From an uncultured Methanosarcinales archaeon (GTDB taxonomy: Archaea; Nanobdellota; Nanobdellia; Woesearchaeales; DSVV01): a DNA stretch of 59,018 nt. A program made the position numbers and the translations under genes. Below, one piece after another: positions 48,951 through 56,725 of the stretch. The DNA lies in assembly GCA_964593285.1 (NCBI GenBank), contig CAZQHZ010000007.1, positions 1 to 59,018 on the forward strand, given 5' to 3'. The notes beneath the pieces were generated by a model. That model ran no database searches and had not been told where the DNA came from. It saw nothing but the letters and a program-made list of their open reading frames with translations. Position 1 is the stretch's first letter. Each line of letters begins with the position of its first letter.

Positions 48951-50045
48951 ATGTTTATTAGATCAAAAAAAATAAAAAATAACCTTTATGCATATGCTAT
49001 AAAAAATAAATGGACTAAATTAGGTCCAAGACAGTGTTATAGTAAATATTTAGGTAAGGTTATTGTTTTAAAACAAGAAAATAATTTAGATTTTGAAGAA
49101 ATATTTAATTATAAAATAAATAAAAATGATCCTTATTATTTAGTAAGATACATTATTATAAAAGAATTAACTAATTATGGTTTTAAAAAAAAGAATGAAT
49201 TTAAGTATTATTATGATGATATTGTTATTAATTTAATTAATGGAACAATTAAAAAAAACAAAAAAAATATTGTATTAATGTTAAATAATGATTTTTTATC
49301 TACTTTTACATTAAAAAAATTAATTTTTTTTAATTCAACAAAAGATAAAAATAATGTAGCACTAGATTTAGCAAAATCTTTTATTCAAGCAGGAATTGCA
49401 GTTAGACAAGATTTATTTATTCAATTATTTAATTTAATTTACAGAAACGGCCAAACATTTATTGAAAAAAAAAAAATTATTAAAAAGAATAAAAAAAAAT
49501 TATCTTCTAATAAAATAGAAAAAAATGATAAAAATACTAAATTATTAGATAAGAAAGTAATTATCGTTTCTGGAACTCCAGGGACTGGTAAAACTACATT
49601 ATCAGAAATTCTTGCAAAAAAAATTAATGCAAAATATGTTGATGTAAACACAATTATAAAAAATAATAAATTAAATAATGAATATGATGATGAAAAAAAA
49701 TGTTATATTATTGATGAAAAAAAATTAGTTGAAAAATTAAAGAAAATGATTAAAAATTCAAAAAATTCATTAGTTATAGATTCACATTTATCTCATTATT
49801 TACCAAAAGATGTAGTAGGCTTATGCATTATTACAAAATGTGAATTAAAAGAATTAGAAAAAAGATTAAAAAAAAGAAAATATAATAAACAAAAAGTGAG
49901 AGATAATTTGGATTGTGAAATCTTTGAAGTATGCAAAATTGAAGCAATAGAGAATAATCATAACATAATTGAAGTATTTACTGATAAAACAATTGATTAT
50001 AATCAAATTATTAATAAAATAGATAAATTAAATAATAAAATATGA
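48951..50045 (+). CDS. Fusion of an unknown N-terminal domain with AK6/Fap7-type adenylate kinase
   Basis: C-terminal half IVSGTPGTGKTT, VIDSHLSH, LEKRLKKRKY...KVRDNLDCE; Lys-rich linker. Confidence 0.8.
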   Translation: MFIRSKKIKNNLYAYAIKNKWTKLGPRQCYSKYLGKVIVLKQENNLDFEEIFNYKINKNDPYYLVRYIIIKELTNYGFKKKNEFKYYYDDIVINLINGTIKKNKKNIVLMLNNDFLSTFTLKKLIFFNSTKDKNNVALDLAKSFIQAGIAVRQDLFIQLFNLIYRNGQTFIEKKKIIKKNKKKLSSNKIEKNDKNTKLLDKKVIIVSGTPGTGKTTLSEILAKKINAKYVDVNTIIKNNKLNNEYDDEKKCYIIDEKKLVEKLKKMIKNSKNSLVIDSHLSHYLPKDVVGLCIITKCELKELEKRLKKRKYNKQKVRDNLDCEIFEVCKIEAIENNHNIIEVFTDKTIDYNQIINKIDKLNNKI

Positions 50046-50147: not shown

Positions 50148-50930
50148 ATGGGGTTTTTGTCAATATTTAAAAAACGGAAAAATATTACTTTAGATAATAG
50201 TCATGTTATTGATGAAAAGCTTGATTCTTTTGCAAATTCTGTTGCAGGTCATTTAAATATTTTAAAACATGATATAAATTTACAAAAAAAATGGGTTGAT
50301 TATTTGCATTCAATTTCAAATAAAATACATGATATGCATTCAAATCATAAAGAACTTACAAAAAATGACATGAATAATGTTAAATCATGGATTAATCATA
50401 TATTTTCTAATCAAAAAAAACAGGAAAATGATATAAAAAAGTTAGAAAATGATCTTTTAAGCATGGTTAATCAATATAAAGAAATTAGTGCTAATTTACA
50501 AAATAAATTATCTTTAATTGAACAAAATTTAGGTAAATCAAATGAAAATATTAAATCTCATTTACTTGAAATTATTAATGAAAAATTTAATGAAACTGAA
50601 AAGAAATTAAATCTATTTGAAGAAAATATAAATAAATCAACTAAAAGTGAAGTTATTGATGATAATAAATTTACAAATAATTTTAAAGATACTATGTTTA
50701 CAAATCCAGAAAGAAAATTATTAAACATATTACTTGATTTACCAGACCCAATTTCTTATTCAAAATTAGCTCAAATGACAGGTAATAGTGTAAATACTGT
50801 GCGTGTTATTATGAATTCACTTAAAAAAAAAGATGTAATTGAAGAAAATTTACTTCCTTCTGGAGAAAAATTATTTAATGCAAAAAATAAAGAAAAAATA
50901 AAGAAAATTTATAATATTGAATGCGTGTAA
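50148..50930 (+). CDS. Coiled-coil protein with C-terminal winged helix-turn-helix
   Basis: Heptad-rich middle; FTNPERKLL..L..PISYSKLAQMTGNSVNTVRVIMNSLKKKDVI HTH pattern. Confidence 0.8.
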   Translation: MGFLSIFKKRKNITLDNSHVIDEKLDSFANSVAGHLNILKHDINLQKKWVDYLHSISNKIHDMHSNHKELTKNDMNNVKSWINHIFSNQKKQENDIKKLENDLLSMVNQYKEISANLQNKLSLIEQNLGKSNENIKSHLLEIINEKFNETEKKLNLFEENINKSTKSEVIDDNKFTNNFKDTMFTNPERKLLNILLDLPDPISYSKLAQMTGNSVNTVRVIMNSLKKKDVIEENLLPSGEKLFNAKNKEKIKKIYNIECV

Positions 50931-50952
50931 ATTGTCGGGATATTCTCTTAAT

Positions 50953-51461
50953 GGCATTATAATGCCTTTTCAGCCCTTCTAGATATTTATTTTGCATTTT
51001 TATTTAATTTTGTTATAATGTTTGCAATGTTTGCAATGTTATAAATGCAATGCATTATAATGCATTTTTTATGTTTTTTAGGCATTTTTCTTTATTTTTT
51101 TAATAATGTACTCACTTTTTTGTATTTTTTATTAAAAATTCATTGATTTTTTTATCATTTTTAATATTTTATCTAATTATTTACTTGATTTTATTAAAAA
51201 AAAGAAATTATTTGTTAAAAATCTGGCATTATACTTGTTATAATGCATTGCAACACATTATAATGCATTATAATGGCCATTGCAATGCATTATATAATGC
51301 ATTGTAATGCATTTCTTTGTTTTAACAAATGTTTTTATAAATATTTTAGCTTTTTAATTACTTATTTATAAATAAATAGTAAAAATTACATAGTTAAAAA
51401 CAAAAATCAAATTATTTTTTAGTTATTTTTTATTTAAAAGCCGTCAAATGGCATTATAATG
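50953..51461. repeat. Array of palindromic CATTRYAATG 10-mers around a T-rich spacer
   Basis: Exact copies at 50955, 51053, 51256, 51266, 51278, 51300 and 51452; degenerate copies at 51011, 51020, 51029, 51236 and 51246. Confidence 0.9.
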
Positions 51462-51818
51462 TTTTCTCAGTGGGTTTATTTATTTTATATTTTAATTTAA
51501 TTCTAATTTAATTTATTTATTATTTTACTATTTCTTAATTAGTGATTTTAATAATAGAATAACTTGCTAGCAAGAATGTTTTATTCTTCTTTAGCTTTGA
51601 AAACCGTTGTGTTTTTCAAAAAAATTTTAATTTATAAATCATTTATTGAAGAAATAATTTTTTTAATATTTAAAAATAAAATTTGTAAAGTGATTGTGTT
51701 GATTGTGTCTTTATTTTTTTATCATAGATGGTTAATTTTTGATTAACTTTTGGTTAATTTTTTAAATAATATTAAATTACTTTATTTTAAATATAATTTA
51801 TAAATTATATAGTATTGG

Positions 51819-53195
51819 GTGATTTTTATTAAAAGTAACAAATTATTTGGCACAGATGGAATACGGGGAACTTCTAATATATTTCCAATGACTGCAGACA
51901 TTGCATTAAAATTAGGGCAAGCATGTGGTAAATATTTCTCAAATAATAATTATAATGGAAATAAAAAAATAAAAGTTATAATTGGAAAAGATACAAGGGT
52001 TTCTGGGTATATTTTTGAGTATGCTTTAACTTCAGGACTATGTTCTATGGGCGTAGATGTTTATTTAGTTGGTCCAATGCCAACTCCTGCAATTGCTCAT
52101 TTAGTTAGATCATTTAATGCTGATTTTGGGATAGTAATTTCAGCATCCCACAATCCTGCAAAAGATAATGGCATAAAATTTTTTGATAATTTGGGCTATA
52201 AATTATCTGATGAAATTGAAGAAAAAATTGAATCAATGGTTTTTAGTAATAATTTTGATACTTCTAATATAAGTATTAATAAAGTTGGAAAAGCTTTTAG
52301 AATAGATGATGCAGCAGGTAGGTATATAGAATTTGCAAAAAATTCAATAAATAATCAATCATTAAAGGGTTTAAAAATTGTTCTTGATTGTGCAAATGGT
52401 GCAGCATATAAAGTTGCTCCTTTGATTTTTAGAGAACTAAGAGCAGAAGTTATTGTTTTTGCAAACAAACCTGATGGTTTTAATATAAATGAAGAATGTG
52501 GTTCATTAAATCCAAAAAATGTTATAGCTTCTGTTTTAGCAGAAAAAGCAGATATTGGTGTTTGTTTAGATGGCGATGCTGATAGAGTTATTTTAGTTGA
52601 CGATAAAGGAGAAATTGTTGATGGTGATGATATTTTAGCATTATGTGCAGTAGATTTAAAAGAGAAAAACGAGTTAGTAAATAATAAAGTTGTTGCAACA
52701 GTTATGAGTAATTTAGGTTTTGAAGAATTTTTAAAAAATAATAATATTGAAGTATTACGAACAAAAGTTGGTGATAGATATGTTATTGAAGAAATGAAAA
52801 ATTCTAATATTGTTTTAGGTGGAGAACAATCTGGCCATATTATTTTTAAAAATTATAATACTACTGGTGATGGTACAATTGCAACATTAAAAATTTTATC
52901 AATTTTAATAAATTCTAACAAAAAGTTTTCAAAACTTAGAAAAAAAATTGAAAAATATCCTCAAATTTTATCAAGTTTTAATGTTGTAAAAAAAACACCT
53001 ATAAAAAAATTAAATTCATATAATGAAATATTAAAATTCGAAAAAGAAATAAAAAATGGTCGAGTTTTAATTAGATATTCTGGGACTGAAAATAAATGTA
53101 GAGTTATGGTTGAAGGAAAAGAAAAAAAAAATGTTGAAAAAGTTACAAATAAAATATCAAATTTAATCAAAGAAGAAATTGGTGTAAAAAAATGA
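51819..53195 (+). CDS. glmM: Phosphoglucosamine mutase (true start possibly ATT at 51828)
   Basis: LFGTDGIRG, GKDTRVSG, SASHNP..DNGIK, DGDADR, VGDRYV, GGEQSGH, RYSGTE. Confidence 0.95.
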   Translation: MIFIKSNKLFGTDGIRGTSNIFPMTADIALKLGQACGKYFSNNNYNGNKKIKVIIGKDTRVSGYIFEYALTSGLCSMGVDVYLVGPMPTPAIAHLVRSFNADFGIVISASHNPAKDNGIKFFDNLGYKLSDEIEEKIESMVFSNNFDTSNISINKVGKAFRIDDAAGRYIEFAKNSINNQSLKGLKIVLDCANGAAYKVAPLIFRELRAEVIVFANKPDGFNINEECGSLNPKNVIASVLAEKADIGVCLDGDADRVILVDDKGEIVDGDDILALCAVDLKEKNELVNNKVVATVMSNLGFEEFLKNNNIEVLRTKVGDRYVIEEMKNSNIVLGGEQSGHIIFKNYNTTGDGTIATLKILSILINSNKKFSKLRKKIEKYPQILSSFNVVKKTPIKKLNSYNEILKFEKEIKNGRVLIRYSGTENKCRVMVEGKEKKNVEKVTNKISNLIKEEIGVKK

Positions 53196-54388
53196 AAGCA
53201 GTAATTTTAGCTGGTGGAAAATCTACTAGAACATATCCATTAACCTTAACAAGGCCAAAACCTTTGTTAAAGGTTGCAAATAAAACAATTATGGAGCATA
53301 ATCTTGAACAATTAAATGGGATTGTTGATGAAGTTTTAATAATTGTTGGTTATAAAAATGAGATGATTATTAATTATTTTAAAAATCAATTTAAAAAGAT
53401 AAAAATAAAATATATTATTCAAAAAGAGCAGCTAGGAACAGGACATGCATTATTATTAGCAGAGCCTTTTTTAAAAGATAAATTTTTGGTGATGTGTGGT
53501 GATGATTTTTATTCTAAAAAAGATATTATAAAGCTAACAAAATATAATAATGCTACATTAGTTTTTGAAAAAGAAAATCCAAAAGAATTTGGTGTGTTTA
53601 TTGTTGAAAATAATAAAATAATTAATTTTATTGAAAAGCCACAAGATTTTGAAATAGGTTTGTGTAATACTTCTTGTTATATTTTAACATCAAAAGTATT
53701 TGATTTGCTAAAAAAATTAAAAAAAAGTCCTCGTGGTGAATATGAGTTAACTGATGCTGTTTTAGAATTAATTTATCAAAATGAATTTAAAATTGTAAAA
53801 GTTAAAGATTATTGGATTCCAATTTCATATTCATGGGATTTATTGAATGCTAACTCTCACTTTTTAAAAGATATTAAATCAAATATCAAAGGTATTGTTG
53901 ATAAAAGTGTAAAAGTTGATGGAAATTTAATTTTAGGAAAAGAAAGTGTAATATTACCAGGAGTTTTTATTGAGGGAAATGTAATTATTGGAAAAAATTG
54001 TAAAATTGGTCCTAATACTTATATTAGAGGTCCAACAACTATAGGTAATAATTGTAGAATTGGTCCAAGTGAAATTAAAGCAAGTATTTTTTTTGATAAT
54101 TGTAGATGTGATCATGTATCCTGTATTGGTGATTCAATTTTAGGTGAAAAAGTTCATATTGGTGCACATACTGTTGTTGCAAATTTAAGACATGATGGAA
54201 AAAGTCATAAATCTTTGATAAAAAATCAATTAATTGATACAAAAAGACGTAAGTTAGGTGTAATTTTTGGAGATAATACAGACACTGGAATTAATACTTC
54301 ATTTTATCCTGCAAGGAAAATGTGGCCAAATACTTTTACATTTCCATCTGAAGTAGTAAAAGAAGACATAATTGATAGAAAATTATAA
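53192..54388 (+). CDS. glmU: Archaeal-type bifunctional sugar-1-phosphate nucleotidylyltransferase/acetyltransferase (GlmU)
   Basis: MKAVILAGG..TR..PLT..RPKPLL, QLGTGHA, SPRGEYELTD, hexapeptide repeats, ANLRHD, RRKLG; coupled to glmM. Confidence 0.9.
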   Translation: MKAVILAGGKSTRTYPLTLTRPKPLLKVANKTIMEHNLEQLNGIVDEVLIIVGYKNEMIINYFKNQFKKIKIKYIIQKEQLGTGHALLLAEPFLKDKFLVMCGDDFYSKKDIIKLTKYNNATLVFEKENPKEFGVFIVENNKIINFIEKPQDFEIGLCNTSCYILTSKVFDLLKKLKKSPRGEYELTDAVLELIYQNEFKIVKVKDYWIPISYSWDLLNANSHFLKDIKSNIKGIVDKSVKVDGNLILGKESVILPGVFIEGNVIIGKNCKIGPNTYIRGPTTIGNNCRIGPSEIKASIFFDNCRCDHVSCIGDSILGEKVHIGAHTVVANLRHDGKSHKSLIKNQLIDTKRRKLGVIFGDNTDTGINTSFYPARKMWPNTFTFPSEVVKEDIIDRKL

Positions 54389-54475: not shown

Positions 54476-56725
54476 ATGAAAAATACTAAATCTCAAGCAT
54501 CTTTTGAATATATGTTAGTTATTGGTATTATGTTTTTTGGTGTTATTGGTGCTGTATCTTTTTTACTTGGATATTTAAATTTTACAGAAAAAGAAGTTTC
54601 TAGTGAAAAAATAAATGAAGTTTCTGAATTAATAAATAAACATTCTACAGAAGCATTTTATAGTACTGGAATTTATAAAAAAGAATTGTCATACCAAATA
54701 CCAAAAGAAGTTAATAATATATATACATATAGAAATACTGAAAATACTTCATCTTTTATTGTTTTTGAAACAAAAAATCAAAATTTTACATATGCTTTAA
54801 ATACAGTTGTTTGTGCAAATTTTAGTGAAGGAATTAGTTCTGGAAGAATTATAATTGAAAAAGGTTTTAACAATAATCATGTTAGTTTTTGTACAAGCGT
54901 TAATACTGGTGAAAAATGTAGTTGTTCTTTTTTTAAAGACTGTATTTTAGATGGTAAAATTATTGGTCATGGATTAAATGATTCTTTTTTTGAATTTAAT
55001 GAGGTTTCTTATGGTGGGAATTGTGATAGTTTAGGGTTACGAAGTTGCAATGATGGTGTTTTAGGGGGTAATGAAAGTTATAAATTTTCAAGTTGTGTTG
55101 TTTTAGAACCTTTAGATTGTATTGGTCCTAATGATGATTTAATTAATCATGGTAGCAGTAAATTATATTATGAATCAGAAATTGTACCTTTTGGTGAAAC
55201 ATGTCAAAATGAAACAAGAAATTGTTATAATGGTTCTTTAAGTGGTTCATATACTAAATTAACTTGTGAGATTACACCACAAGATATTACTCCAGATTTT
55301 TTTAATTTTGAAAATATAGATTCTTCATTATTAGATGATTTTGTATATTCAGAAATTATAACTCCATCAAATTATGATGGTCCATTAGAAGTTAATATAA
55401 CAGGTGATGGAAATCCTAAATTAAAAATAAATAGTGGTGATTGGATTACTGAAGGTTTTATGTATCTTGGAGATACATTACAATTAAGATTAACTTCGCC
55501 AACAGAAGAAAATACCACTTATAGTTCTATATTAACTTTAGGAAATTATAGTACTACTTGGAATGTTAGAACTGGTTTTTCATGTAATCTTCCGTGGGGA
55601 GAAATAATTAATCATAGTGAAAATGTAACTGCATTTAATAATTCATCTGTACCTTGTGGTTCTTTATGTATAAATGAAACAAGAACATGTGATGATGGTG
55701 TTTTAAATGGAAGCTTTACTAATCAAAGTTGCAGTGTTGTAATTTGTGAAAGTTGTACTAGTCCTTGCGGAAATACTGTAATTCATGGGGAAACTGATAC
55801 TTGTTATGAGAGATGTAGTACTTCTAGTGAAACAAGAACTTGTGATGATGGTTCATGGAATAGTTCTTTTAGTTCAGGTTATACATATTCAGAAGAAAAT
55901 CAAAATTGTAATTCATGTACTTTACCATGGGGTGGAACAATCTCTCATGGACAAAGTACAACAGCATATCACTCATCTTCAGTTCCATGTGGTTCTAGTT
56001 GTACTTCACAAACTAGAACTTGTAATGATGGTACTTTAAGTGGATCTTATGATTATCAAAGTTGTTCTGTTCAAGCATGTGCTTCTTGTTCAAGTCAAAC
56101 GTTTTCTTGGGGAAGTGGTTGTAGTGCTTCAATTTCAGCAACAAATCATGGTAATACAAGAACAATTTCTAATACTGTTTCAGGTTATACAGGTTCTGCC
56201 AGATATAGATGTAATGATGGTTCATGGACTCAAGAATGGGAAACTTGTTCTGTTAGTTGTACTCCTCAAACTTGTTCGTCTTTAGGTTATAGTTGTGGTA
56301 GTCATCCAGATGGTTGTGGTGGTACACTCAATTGTGGAGGTTGTAATTCAGGTTATTATTGTGAAAGTGGTATTTGTAAAACTTGTACATATACATGTAA
56401 TACATGGGGGAGGTGGTGTTATACAGATCCATTTAATTACCCTTATGGTGATGAATCAAAAGCAGATTATGTTTATAAATCATCATATATTGTTTGTACT
56501 TCCCCATATACTGCCGGTGGTTATGGAAGAAAATGTGAAAGCTGGGACAGTCCTTGTAGTTGTTCTAATAAGTGTACACAATGGGGTAGATATTGTTATA
56601 CTAGTGCAGACGGTAGTAGTGCAGAATTAGTTTTTTCTTCTGATTATGTAGTTTGTACAGCTCCAGATTACCCTTATGGTGGATTTCAAAGAGCATGTAA
56701 TACATATACTTTAAGTTGTAGTTAG
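54476..56725 (+). CDS. Type IV pilin-like leader Cys-rich repeat surface protein
   Basis: KSQASFEYMLVIG class III leader; repeats C.LPWG..I.HG..VPCG..C..ETRTC.DG.L.GS; DITPDFFNF domain; twin C..WGR.CYT C-terminal repeats. Confidence 0.8.
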   Translation: MKNTKSQASFEYMLVIGIMFFGVIGAVSFLLGYLNFTEKEVSSEKINEVSELINKHSTEAFYSTGIYKKELSYQIPKEVNNIYTYRNTENTSSFIVFETKNQNFTYALNTVVCANFSEGISSGRIIIEKGFNNNHVSFCTSVNTGEKCSCSFFKDCILDGKIIGHGLNDSFFEFNEVSYGGNCDSLGLRSCNDGVLGGNESYKFSSCVVLEPLDCIGPNDDLINHGSSKLYYESEIVPFGETCQNETRNCYNGSLSGSYTKLTCEITPQDITPDFFNFENIDSSLLDDFVYSEIITPSNYDGPLEVNITGDGNPKLKINSGDWITEGFMYLGDTLQLRLTSPTEENTTYSSILTLGNYSTTWNVRTGFSCNLPWGEIINHSENVTAFNNSSVPCGSLCINETRTCDDGVLNGSFTNQSCSVVICESCTSPCGNTVIHGETDTCYERCSTSSETRTCDDGSWNSSFSSGYTYSEENQNCNSCTLPWGGTISHGQSTTAYHSSSVPCGSSCTSQTRTCNDGTLSGSYDYQSCSVQACASCSSQTFSWGSGCSASISATNHGNTRTISNTVSGYTGSARYRCNDGSWTQEWETCSVSCTPQTCSSLGYSCGSHPDGCGGTLNCGGCNSGYYCESGICKTCTYTCNTWGRWCYTDPFNYPYGDESKADYVYKSSYIVCTSPYTAGGYGRKCESWDSPCSCSNKCTQWGRYCYTSADGSSAELVFSSDYVVCTAPDYPYGGFQRACNTYTLSCS

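What the first reader, a model, noticed from the sequence alone, without database searches (positions are those of the whole stretch)
50148..51810. Coiled-coil/wHTH gene followed by a palindromic 10-bp iteron-like array: candidate non-canonical origin or partition system
Seen: the longest non-coding gap in the window (about 890 bp) holds about 12 exact or degenerate CATTRYAATG palindromes. These include perfect GGCATTATAATGCC (50953-50966) and AATGCATTATAATGCATT (51049-51066), and a head-to-tail run with 10-bp period (51236-51275). Two clusters flank a roughly 150-bp T-rich spacer (51067-51224). The adjacent gene encodes a long coiled coil plus wHTH. The motif does not look like a G-string ORB, and no orc1/cdc6 or parA is nearby. 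Inference: cognate binding array for the wHTH protein, acting as origin iterons plus unwinding element or as a centromere-like site.
Basis: partly seen in the sequence, partly recalled or inferred. Interest (0 to 1): 0.8.

Follow-up and report, generated by a model that had tools for sequence, protein, structure and literature searches.

The report
DPANN winged-helix protein with cognate array
A tiny uncultured archaeon has one dense array of 10-base palindromes beside the gene for a coiled-coil DNA-binding protein; relatives across its class keep such arrays and change the repeat as the protein's DNA-reading helix changes, so it is likely a centromere-like platform that may tether the chromosome to the membrane, and probably not the replication origin.

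Summary
In detail: 7 exact and 7 two-mismatch CATTRYAATG sites form two clusters, and 7 of the genome's 9 exact copies lie here. The gene encodes a short aromatic, basic N-terminal helix, a helix of about 145 residues and a C-terminal winged helix.

In the genome's own family, 22 of 24 genomes with the gene have the array. The two-cluster layout holds in 33 of 34 loci and survives gene inversion and insertions. Distant homologs across Nanobdellota carry different arrays that track the recognition helix; lineage is a confound.

The origin reading fails where it could be tested. The genome has a canonical ORB origin at orc1 on another contig. In one complete relative the strand skew switches at orc1, 400 kb from the array. 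The spacer is not a conserved AT-rich element. A second skew test was inconclusive.

In other orders of the class the gene lies 3-9 kb from orc1 (8 of 8), often beside xerA. ParB is absent here and a ParA-like gene is unlinked.

Best reading: an undescribed single-protein, centromere-like anchoring element that works like RacA/RocS/RicO with the domain order reversed. Binding and role are inferred.

The parts
50148..50930 (+). Gene for a 260-aa protein ('W'): N-terminal aromatic/basic helix, long coiled-coil-like helix, C-terminal winged helix
   Evidence: ORF; HTH_24 at residues 188-232; model pLDDT 80.9; 28 close homologs
50148..50177 (+). Residues 1-10: conserved M-G-[IFL]-[LF]-x-x-F-K-K-K pattern, predicted membrane-binding amphipathic helix (inferred)
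   Evidence: Pattern in 56 of 92 homologs vs 48 of 1,117 control proteins; moment over residues 1-9 of 0.52 in 34 family proteins vs 0.34; an 11-residue Eisenberg test showed no difference
50199..50639 (+). Residues 18-164: one long predicted helix with conserved Trp/His positions, likely a coiled coil
   Evidence: W49, H64 and H67 nearly invariant
50703..50912 (+). Residues 186-255: winged-helix domain; recognition-helix motif at residues 212-223 nearly invariant in the close family
   Evidence: Foldseek top hits are MarR/ArsR-type winged helices
50953..51066 (.). Left cluster: palindrome at 50955, conserved short linker, 9-bp-period half-site run (51011-51038), palindrome at 51053
   Evidence: same layout in 12 aligned loci
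51067..51224 (.). T-rich spacer carrying one CTCACTTTT word at 51111-51119
   Evidence: spacers of 104-246 bp in 33 of 34 family loci
51225..51311 (.). Right cluster: eight phased sites with 9-, 10- and 12-bp spacings
   Evidence: family-wide spacings of 10 bp (69 times) and 12 bp (25 times)
51452..51461 (.). Distal exact site; its flanks repeat those of the first site
   Evidence: no substitution listed inside the site while 51462-51487 diverges in two other runs
48951..50045 (+). Upstream neighbour (context): uncharacterised domain fused to an adenylate-kinase-like domain; two separate genes in most relatives
51819..54388 (+). Downstream neighbours (context): phosphoglucosamine-mutase-like and GlmU-like genes; frequent but not constant neighbours

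Best explanation
The palindrome array is likely the binding platform of the neighbouring coiled-coil/winged-helix protein, which would assemble on it as phased oligomers and is predicted to tether or organise this one chromosomal site at the membrane, as a motor-less centromere-like anchor. Shown: a single array per genome, conserved linkage and layout, repeat change alongside the recognition helix, and a position away from the skew-defined origin in one complete relative. Inferred: each winged helix reads a 5-bp half-site; 10/12-bp palindromes and 9-bp direct half-site runs nucleate a polymer; the coiled coils bridge the two clusters or two sister copies; the N-terminal helix inserts in the membrane; the complex helps position or segregate the chromosome, possibly with the unlinked ParA-like ATPase. 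Autoregulation may be a side job. Odds: about 0.9 for cognate binding, about 0.5 for this role.
For: Array unique in the genome. Paired motif in 22 of 28 family genomes, all among the 24 with the gene; tight tandem form in 5 of 401 phylum genomes, all of this family. Array stays when the gene is inverted (L017, L043) or a gene is inserted (L014, L031, L036, L051, L052). It lies between two gene 3' ends in 8 of 26 loci, where it cannot be a promoter operator. Helix classes map to different repeats and to clades. Central dinucleotides GC 96, AT 89, AC 18, GT 15 fit a double-stranded site. In other orders of the class the homolog is 3-9 kb from orc1 in 8 of 8 genomes with both hits, and xerA is adjacent in 5 of 9 windows. 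No ParB in this genome or 18 of 21 relatives; an unlinked ParA-like gene is present. HTH plus coiled coil plus amphipathic helix is the build of RocS and RicO.
Against: No binding, membrane or segregation data. In the genome's own order the locus is 54-404 kb from orc1 (4 genomes), unlike typical parS, ram or ricS sites. No linked motor. The array is missing or degenerate in 2 of 24 gene-bearing family genomes, and no array was found near 11 of 14 homologs of one helix class. Arrays are promoter-proximal in L017, L043, L038 and in family f87, as operators would be. One of two amphipathicity tests was negative. Motif classes were defined by eye on the same loci, and kin share them.
Confidence: 0.5

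Rival explanations
1. The protein is a transcription regulator and the array is an operator, roadblock or titration sink that controls its own gene or neighbours such as the glmM/glmU/glmS genes.
For: MarR/ArsR-like fold. Array within 56-119 bp of the gene's start in L017 and L043; small extra clusters at promoter-like positions in L012, L038 and G397; arrays upstream of the gene in family f87.
Against: Between convergent 3' ends in 8 of 26 loci; the downstream gene varies; no scattered regulon, since only 2 exact sites lie elsewhere in the genome. More than ten phased sites, a 145-residue helix and a membrane-type N-terminus exceed what an operator needs (inference).
Confidence: 0.22
2. The array is a secondary or dormant replication origin with the protein as an alternative initiator, in the manner of Sulfolobus WhiP or plasmid iteron/Rep pairs (recalled).
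For: Two phased clusters around a T-rich spacer next to a winged-helix gene; near orc1 in other orders. An outward-pointing word flanks these loci: in 53 distant loci CTCACTTT 58 vs AAAGTGAG 0 upstream, and 13 vs 57 downstream.
Against: In complete chromosome G404 the best single origin is about 1,120 kb, at the orc1-polD operon (score 46.5, 0 of 300 nulls); the array as origin gives z 0.69 and -0.30, and adding it as a second origin lowers the fit. ORB-type boxes lie upstream of orc1 in this genome. Spacer AT averages 72% vs 65% for the loci, is under 70% in 11 of 33 and falls to 48%. No phage family or viral contig hit.
Confidence: 0.13
3. The complex is a chromosome landmark for division or dimer resolution (nucleoid-occlusion-like or terminus-organiser-like) rather than a segregation anchor.
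For: xerA adjacent in 5 of 9 windows and a dif-like inverted repeat upstream of 8 homologs in the other orders; polarised flanking word.
Against: In G404 the array is about 530 kb from the inferred terminus and about 100 kb from the xerA-like gene. The dif-like pattern is absent from this genome and G404. In the other orders the locus sits beside orc1, not opposite it.
Confidence: 0.1
4. The repeats belong to a structured non-coding RNA or terminator at the gene's 3' end.
For: Palindromic runs can fold; 12 sub-threshold miRNA-hairpin matches in Rfam.
Against: No Rfam match reaches its gathering score. Non-palindromic centres AC and GT are equally common on one strand (18 vs 15). The array leaves the 3' end in inverted and insertion loci.
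Confidence: 0.03

Closest known systems
RacA / RocS / RicO chromosome anchors of Firmicutes (bioRxiv 10.64898/2026.03.06.710092: abstract and section 13 read)
   Same: Small HTH DNA-binding domain plus coiled coil; RocS and RicO add an amphipathic helix; RicO and RacA bind specific motifs and anchor the chromosome without a linked motor.
   Different: Domain order is reversed here (helix first, winged helix last). No Pfam, NCBIfam or PDB hit ties it to them. One dense array beside the gene instead of sites spread around the origin. Archaeal.
Plasmid centromere plus binding protein: TubR/tubC with TubY (PMC7762940: abstract and start of introduction read); pSK1 Par, R1 parC/ParR, R388 StbA/stbS (recalled)
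   Same: Tandem phased sites beside the gene of the binding protein, often in two clusters; TubY joins HTH, coiled coil and a membrane-binding amphipathic tail.
   Different: Chromosomal and inherited with the lineage; no linked NTPase; palindromic 10-mers mixed with 9-bp half-site runs; no sequence match.
Archaeal SegAB (PMC7617429: passages read; PMC12139799 and PMC8682754: search listing only) and AspA-ParBA (recalled)
   Same: Site-specific DNA-binding protein with a centromere-like palindrome near its gene.
   Different: No adjacent ParA/SegA, no ParB domain; long coiled coil and membrane-type N-terminus.
Archaeal oriC with Orc1/Cdc6 and ORB boxes; WhiP-type alternative origins (recalled)
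   Same: Repeat clusters flanking a T-rich stretch in a large intergenic gap beside a winged-helix gene.
   Different: Not next to orc1 in this order, no G-string ORB, no conserved AT-rich element, no skew switch in G404; the canonical origin exists elsewhere.

Membership tests
Archaeal oriC (Orc1/Cdc6-ORB) | Adjacent orc1/cdc6 gene | tested here: not met
   orc1 on contig C12; 404 kb away in G404
Archaeal oriC (Orc1/Cdc6-ORB) | ORB boxes with G-string | tested here: not met
   The array motif is unrelated; ORB-type boxes lie upstream of orc1 on C12
Archaeal oriC (Orc1/Cdc6-ORB) | Strand-skew switch at the site | tested here: not met
   G404: z 0.69 and -0.30 at the array vs 4.14 and -5.23 at orc1. 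The G024 test on about 46% of the genome was inconclusive.
Iteron / alternative-initiator origin (WhiP- or Rep-like) | Winged-helix gene beside phased repeats | tested here: met
Iteron / alternative-initiator origin (WhiP- or Rep-like) | Conserved AT-rich unwinding element | tested here: not met
   Spacer AT 48-86%, following the genome
Iteron / alternative-initiator origin (WhiP- or Rep-like) | Initiation of replication at the site | not testable with these tools
   Needs marker-frequency or replication assays; no raw reads were listed
ParABS / SegAB / AspA partition systems | Linked Walker-type ATPase | tested here: not met
   No ParA among the annotated neighbour clusters; ParA-like gene on another contig
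ParABS / SegAB / AspA partition systems | ParB-like domain in the binder or genome | tested here: not met
   No ParB_N match in this genome; 3 of 21 relatives match
ParABS / SegAB / AspA partition systems | Centromere-like repeats beside the binder's gene | tested here: met
   22 of 24 gene-bearing family genomes
ParABS / SegAB / AspA partition systems | Origin-proximal position | tested here: inconclusive
   3-9 kb from orc1 in 8 of 8 genomes of other orders; 54-404 kb in 4 genomes of the own order
RacA / RocS / RicO anchors | HTH domain plus long coiled coil | tested here: met
   (helix predicted; oligomer not shown)
RacA / RocS / RicO anchors | N-terminal MerR/MarR-type HTH, C-terminal helix, sequence homology | tested here: not met
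   Order reversed; no family or structure hit to them
RacA / RocS / RicO anchors | Amphipathic membrane-binding helix | tested here: inconclusive
   Pattern and 8/9-residue moment enriched; 11-residue Eisenberg moment not enriched
RacA / RocS / RicO anchors | Anchors DNA to the cell envelope in vivo | not testable with these tools
   Needs imaging or reconstitution
MarR/ArsR-type autoregulated transcription factor | Winged-helix fold | tested here: met
MarR/ArsR-type autoregulated transcription factor | Operator consistently at a promoter | tested here: not met
   Between convergent 3' ends in 8 of 26 loci; promoter-proximal in others

The most novel reading that the evidence does not exclude
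This family is the missing chromosome-segregation machine of Nanobdellota: a membrane-bound coiled-coil/winged-helix protein that polymerises on a lineage-specific centromere and pins the chromosome to the membrane without ParB or a linked motor. It would have begun beside oriC and xerA, with paralogous partners, and its centromere word would have been rewritten at least six times together with the recognition helix, giving a natural protein-DNA recognition code.
Probability: 0.33. Interest if true: 0.9.

Novelty: new variant of a known kind. Interest (0 to 1): 0.72.

Why it matters
How DPANN archaea segregate and position their chromosomes is open; the review passages read (PMC7617429) name no DPANN segregation system. 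This locus gives a concrete candidate with a defined protein, a defined DNA word and six or more natural protein/word pairs. That makes swap experiments in vitro possible without culturing the organisms. It also shows that a repeat array flanking a T-rich gap in DPANN need not be the origin. If the anchor reading holds, archaea evolved a RacA/RicO-like solution independently, with the domains in reverse order.

Tried and rejected
Raw cumulative GC/AT skew in the window and in G404 was dominated by gene orientation. A codon-usage G-test was confounded and not significant against its null; it was replaced by the fourfold-site test.

The G024 skew test covered about 46% of the chromosome, and its GC and AT signals disagreed: inconclusive. 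No skew test was possible for a genome where the locus is next to orc1.

The homodimer prediction gave no verdict. A second fold with the deeper alignment had not finished, and the wide structural search did not run.

A palindrome-only motif scan missed arrays built of direct half-sites.

A PspA/ESCRT-III reading was considered because of the N-terminal helix. No such family is among the 25 most-shared Pfam hits of 84 members (151 families matched), and the model shows no hairpin.

PHROGs: no hit for the protein. Viral contigs: none of 51 candidates confirmed. Rfam: nothing at gathering score. No RNA holder listed.

ArsR-type neighbours as the binder: one is not found in this genome and the other is on another contig.

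Eight paper searches returned no description of this family or array. Most subscription journals are outside the library. The supplements of bioRxiv 10.64898/2026.05.13.725050, which lists an unnamed winged-HTH marker (OG0000296), could not be seen and may concern one of these proteins.

Full report
Observation. The 888-bp gap 50931-51818 is the longest non-coding stretch of the window. It holds 7 exact CATTRYAATG sites, against 0.75 expected for the window, with 0 of 100 shuffles reaching 7, plus 7 two-mismatch sites. The whole 1.18-Mb genome has 9 exact copies, and only 1 of 1,726 700-nt windows has four or more half-site hits. The left cluster (50953-51066) has two palindromes around a run of half-sites with 9-bp period. 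The right cluster (51225-51311) has 10- and 12-bp phasing. A 158-bp T-rich spacer lies between, and a lone site sits at 51452.

The protein. ORF 50148-50930 (260 aa) has an HTH_24 hit at residues 188-232. The model shows a short helix at 3-7, one helix from 18 to 164, a loose linker and a winged helix (pLDDT 80.9, pTM 0.31). Foldseek finds only generic MarR/ArsR-type domains, and sequence searches of the PDB find generic coiled coils and HTH domains. Close homologs that carry a source name are labelled Woesearchaeota, Nanoarchaeota or Nanobdellota; their recognition helix is almost invariant. The N-terminus follows an aromatic/hydrophobic-then-basic pattern in 56 of 92 homologs vs 48 of 1,117 control proteins. 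Its hydrophobic moment over residues 1-9 is 0.52 in 34 family proteins vs 0.34, but an 11-residue test on another scale showed no difference. It resembles the membrane-targeting helices of MinE and Noc (recalled). Membrane binding is inferred.

Linkage in the family. The gene is found in 24 of 28 genomes of the own family and paired motifs in 22 of 28, all among the gene-bearing ones. The four genomes without the gene lack the array, which assembly gaps would also explain, and two with the gene (G402, G375) lack paired sites. The tight tandem form occurs in 5 of 401 phylum genomes, all of this family. Of 34 distinct family loci with a strong array, 33 show two clusters 104-246 bp apart, and the left arm aligns base by base over 12 loci. 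The array stays in place when the gene is inverted (L017, L043) or when another gene is inserted between them (L014, L031, L036, L051, L052). In 8 of the 26 loci where the next gene could be placed, it lies between two 3' ends.

Co-variation across the class. A broad profile hits 265 of 401 Nanobdellota genomes at E 1e-6. That count includes paralogs and six genomes flagged unpublished, which enter only such tallies. Among 92 distinct homolog loci, repeats sort by recognition-helix class: GxSINTVRVxM with CATTRYAATG (36 of 38); KSVNSIRVYM with the same word (2 of 2); KTMNTIRVY/SPNSVKVY with CGTTATAACG (2 of 2); EKSIRN with GGACA repeats (9 of 9; a tenth close variant, L058, fell below the count threshold); LNYxTVKN with GTGACA or GTTACA (3 of 4); SxxTVKN with CGTYTARACG or TAGTCGACTA (4 of 4); ERSTIRGQIN with TGTTTAAACA upstream of the gene (6 of 6); a more distant type, SKSSFY, with GTCCCA/GTCTCA upstream (3 of 6). 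No array was called for 11 of 14 DKSTIRGQ homologs or 3 of 7 unclassified ones. The six foreign words checked never reach four hits per window in this genome. Caveats: classes and motifs were drawn by eye from the same loci, and they follow clades of the protein tree, so this shows persistent pairing with motif turnover, not co-evolution independent of descent.

Is it the origin? This genome has one orc1/cdc6 on contig C12, preceded by a 904-bp, 89% AT gap with ORB-type boxes. On the complete 1.84-Mb chromosome G404, which carries the same array at 734 kb, strand asymmetry at fourfold codon sites is best fitted by an origin near 1,120 kb, at the orc1-polD operon (score 46.5; null maximum 23.3; 0 of 300). 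The array as origin gives z 0.69 and -0.30, and as a second origin it lowers the fit. A test on G024 was inconclusive. Spacer AT content follows the genome and falls to 48%. So a main origin is not supported; a dormant one is not excluded.

Position and partners. In the own order the locus is 54, 122, 208 and 404 kb from orc1. I chose 11 genomes from other orders of the class for long contigs (small genomes, probably Pacearchaeales: inference). In 8 the homolog lies 3-9 kb from orc1; one shows only the paralog, at 15 kb; two have no orc1 hit. These genomes are kin. There the gene usually faces a convergent paralog, and xerA is adjacent in 5 of 9 windows. This genome lacks ParB and has an unlinked ParA-like gene. 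A second word points outward from these loci: in 53 distant loci CTCACTTT outnumbers AAAGTGAG 58 to 0 upstream and 13 to 57 downstream. Its reader is unknown.

Mechanism. Shown: one array per genome, conserved layout and linkage, motif turnover with the helix, position off the skew-defined origin in one complete relative. Inferred: the protein binds the half-sites as dimers, polymerises along the phased sites, bridges the clusters or sister copies through its coiled coil and holds the site at the membrane (0.5). Rivals: regulator (0.22), dormant origin (0.13), division or dimer-resolution landmark (0.10), RNA (0.03).

Comparison and novelty. It works like RacA, RocS and RicO, which join an HTH, a coiled coil and, in the last two, an amphipathic helix (bioRxiv 10.64898/2026.03.06.710092, abstract and section 13), and like TubY with a plasmid centromere (PMC7762940, abstract and start of introduction). 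It is not a member of these families: the domain order is reversed and no homology was found. It fails the tests for oriC and for ParABS/SegAB. Archaeal Xer/dif context is from PMC2958812 (passages). Eight paper searches found no description; the preprint on 208 complete genomes rotates them to orc1, and a search of its text found no mention of skew (passages). Two unchecked notes of this scan describe what look like paralogous loci and lean the same way; they are not independent support.

Verdict. A real, conserved, apparently undescribed protein-DNA element of Nanobdellota: a new variant of the motor-less anchor/centromere kind, role inferred. Interest 0.72.

Noticed in passing
Own genome C5:16352-16963 (-); L159:2009-2533; L241:5943-6605: A second coiled-coil/winged-helix paralog without the aromatic N-terminus; convergent with the main gene in the other orders, with AAAAGTGAG words and often an ATTCGG...CGA inverted repeat just downstream.
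   Followed up: partly
Own genome C4:33900-37400; L159:1075-1587: A long gene-poor stretch with a conserved 170-aa protein that has no Pfam or NCBIfam name, an 81-codon frame resembling the family's N-terminus, outward-pointing AAAAGTGAG words and an assembly gap. In G404 the matching locus is near the inferred terminus and 6 kb from the ParA-like gene.
   Followed up: partly
L241:4604-4636; L242:5749-5781; L243:11313-11345: A dif-like inverted repeat upstream of the homolog in 8 loci, with xerA close by and orc1 a few kb away, which is odd for a terminus element.
   Followed up: partly
window 48951-50045: An uncharacterised domain fused in frame to an adenylate-kinase-like domain; these are two genes in most relatives and a frequent neighbour across the order.
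   Followed up: partly
window 50932-50938 and 48933: Two more recurring words near these loci: TTGTCGG right after the stop codon (7 copies in the genome) and TAGGCACT/AGTGCCTA (6 copies; present in 38 of 92 loci).
   Followed up: partly
L176:8580-8640; L012 near 2900-2950; L038 near 520-560: Small secondary clusters of the motif at promoter-like positions: between two genes 17 kb from the array in G397, before an ArsR-like gene, and before the gene itself.
   Followed up: partly
L091:7550-8990: A three-gene cluster with a small GTPase, resembling the haloarchaeal origin-associated oapABC genes (name recalled), 13 kb from the array in G404; on other contigs in the own genome.
   Followed up: partly
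Own genome C5:129-951: The XerA-like gene appears split into two frames at a contig end.
   Followed up: no
window 50292-50390: The long helix has a twice-repeated W-[IV]-x-[YH]-[LI] pattern with conserved histidines that could form a metal site between chains.
   Followed up: no
window 54476-56725: A 749-aa Cys-rich repeat protein with a pilin-like N-terminus and no Pfam hit.
   Followed up: no
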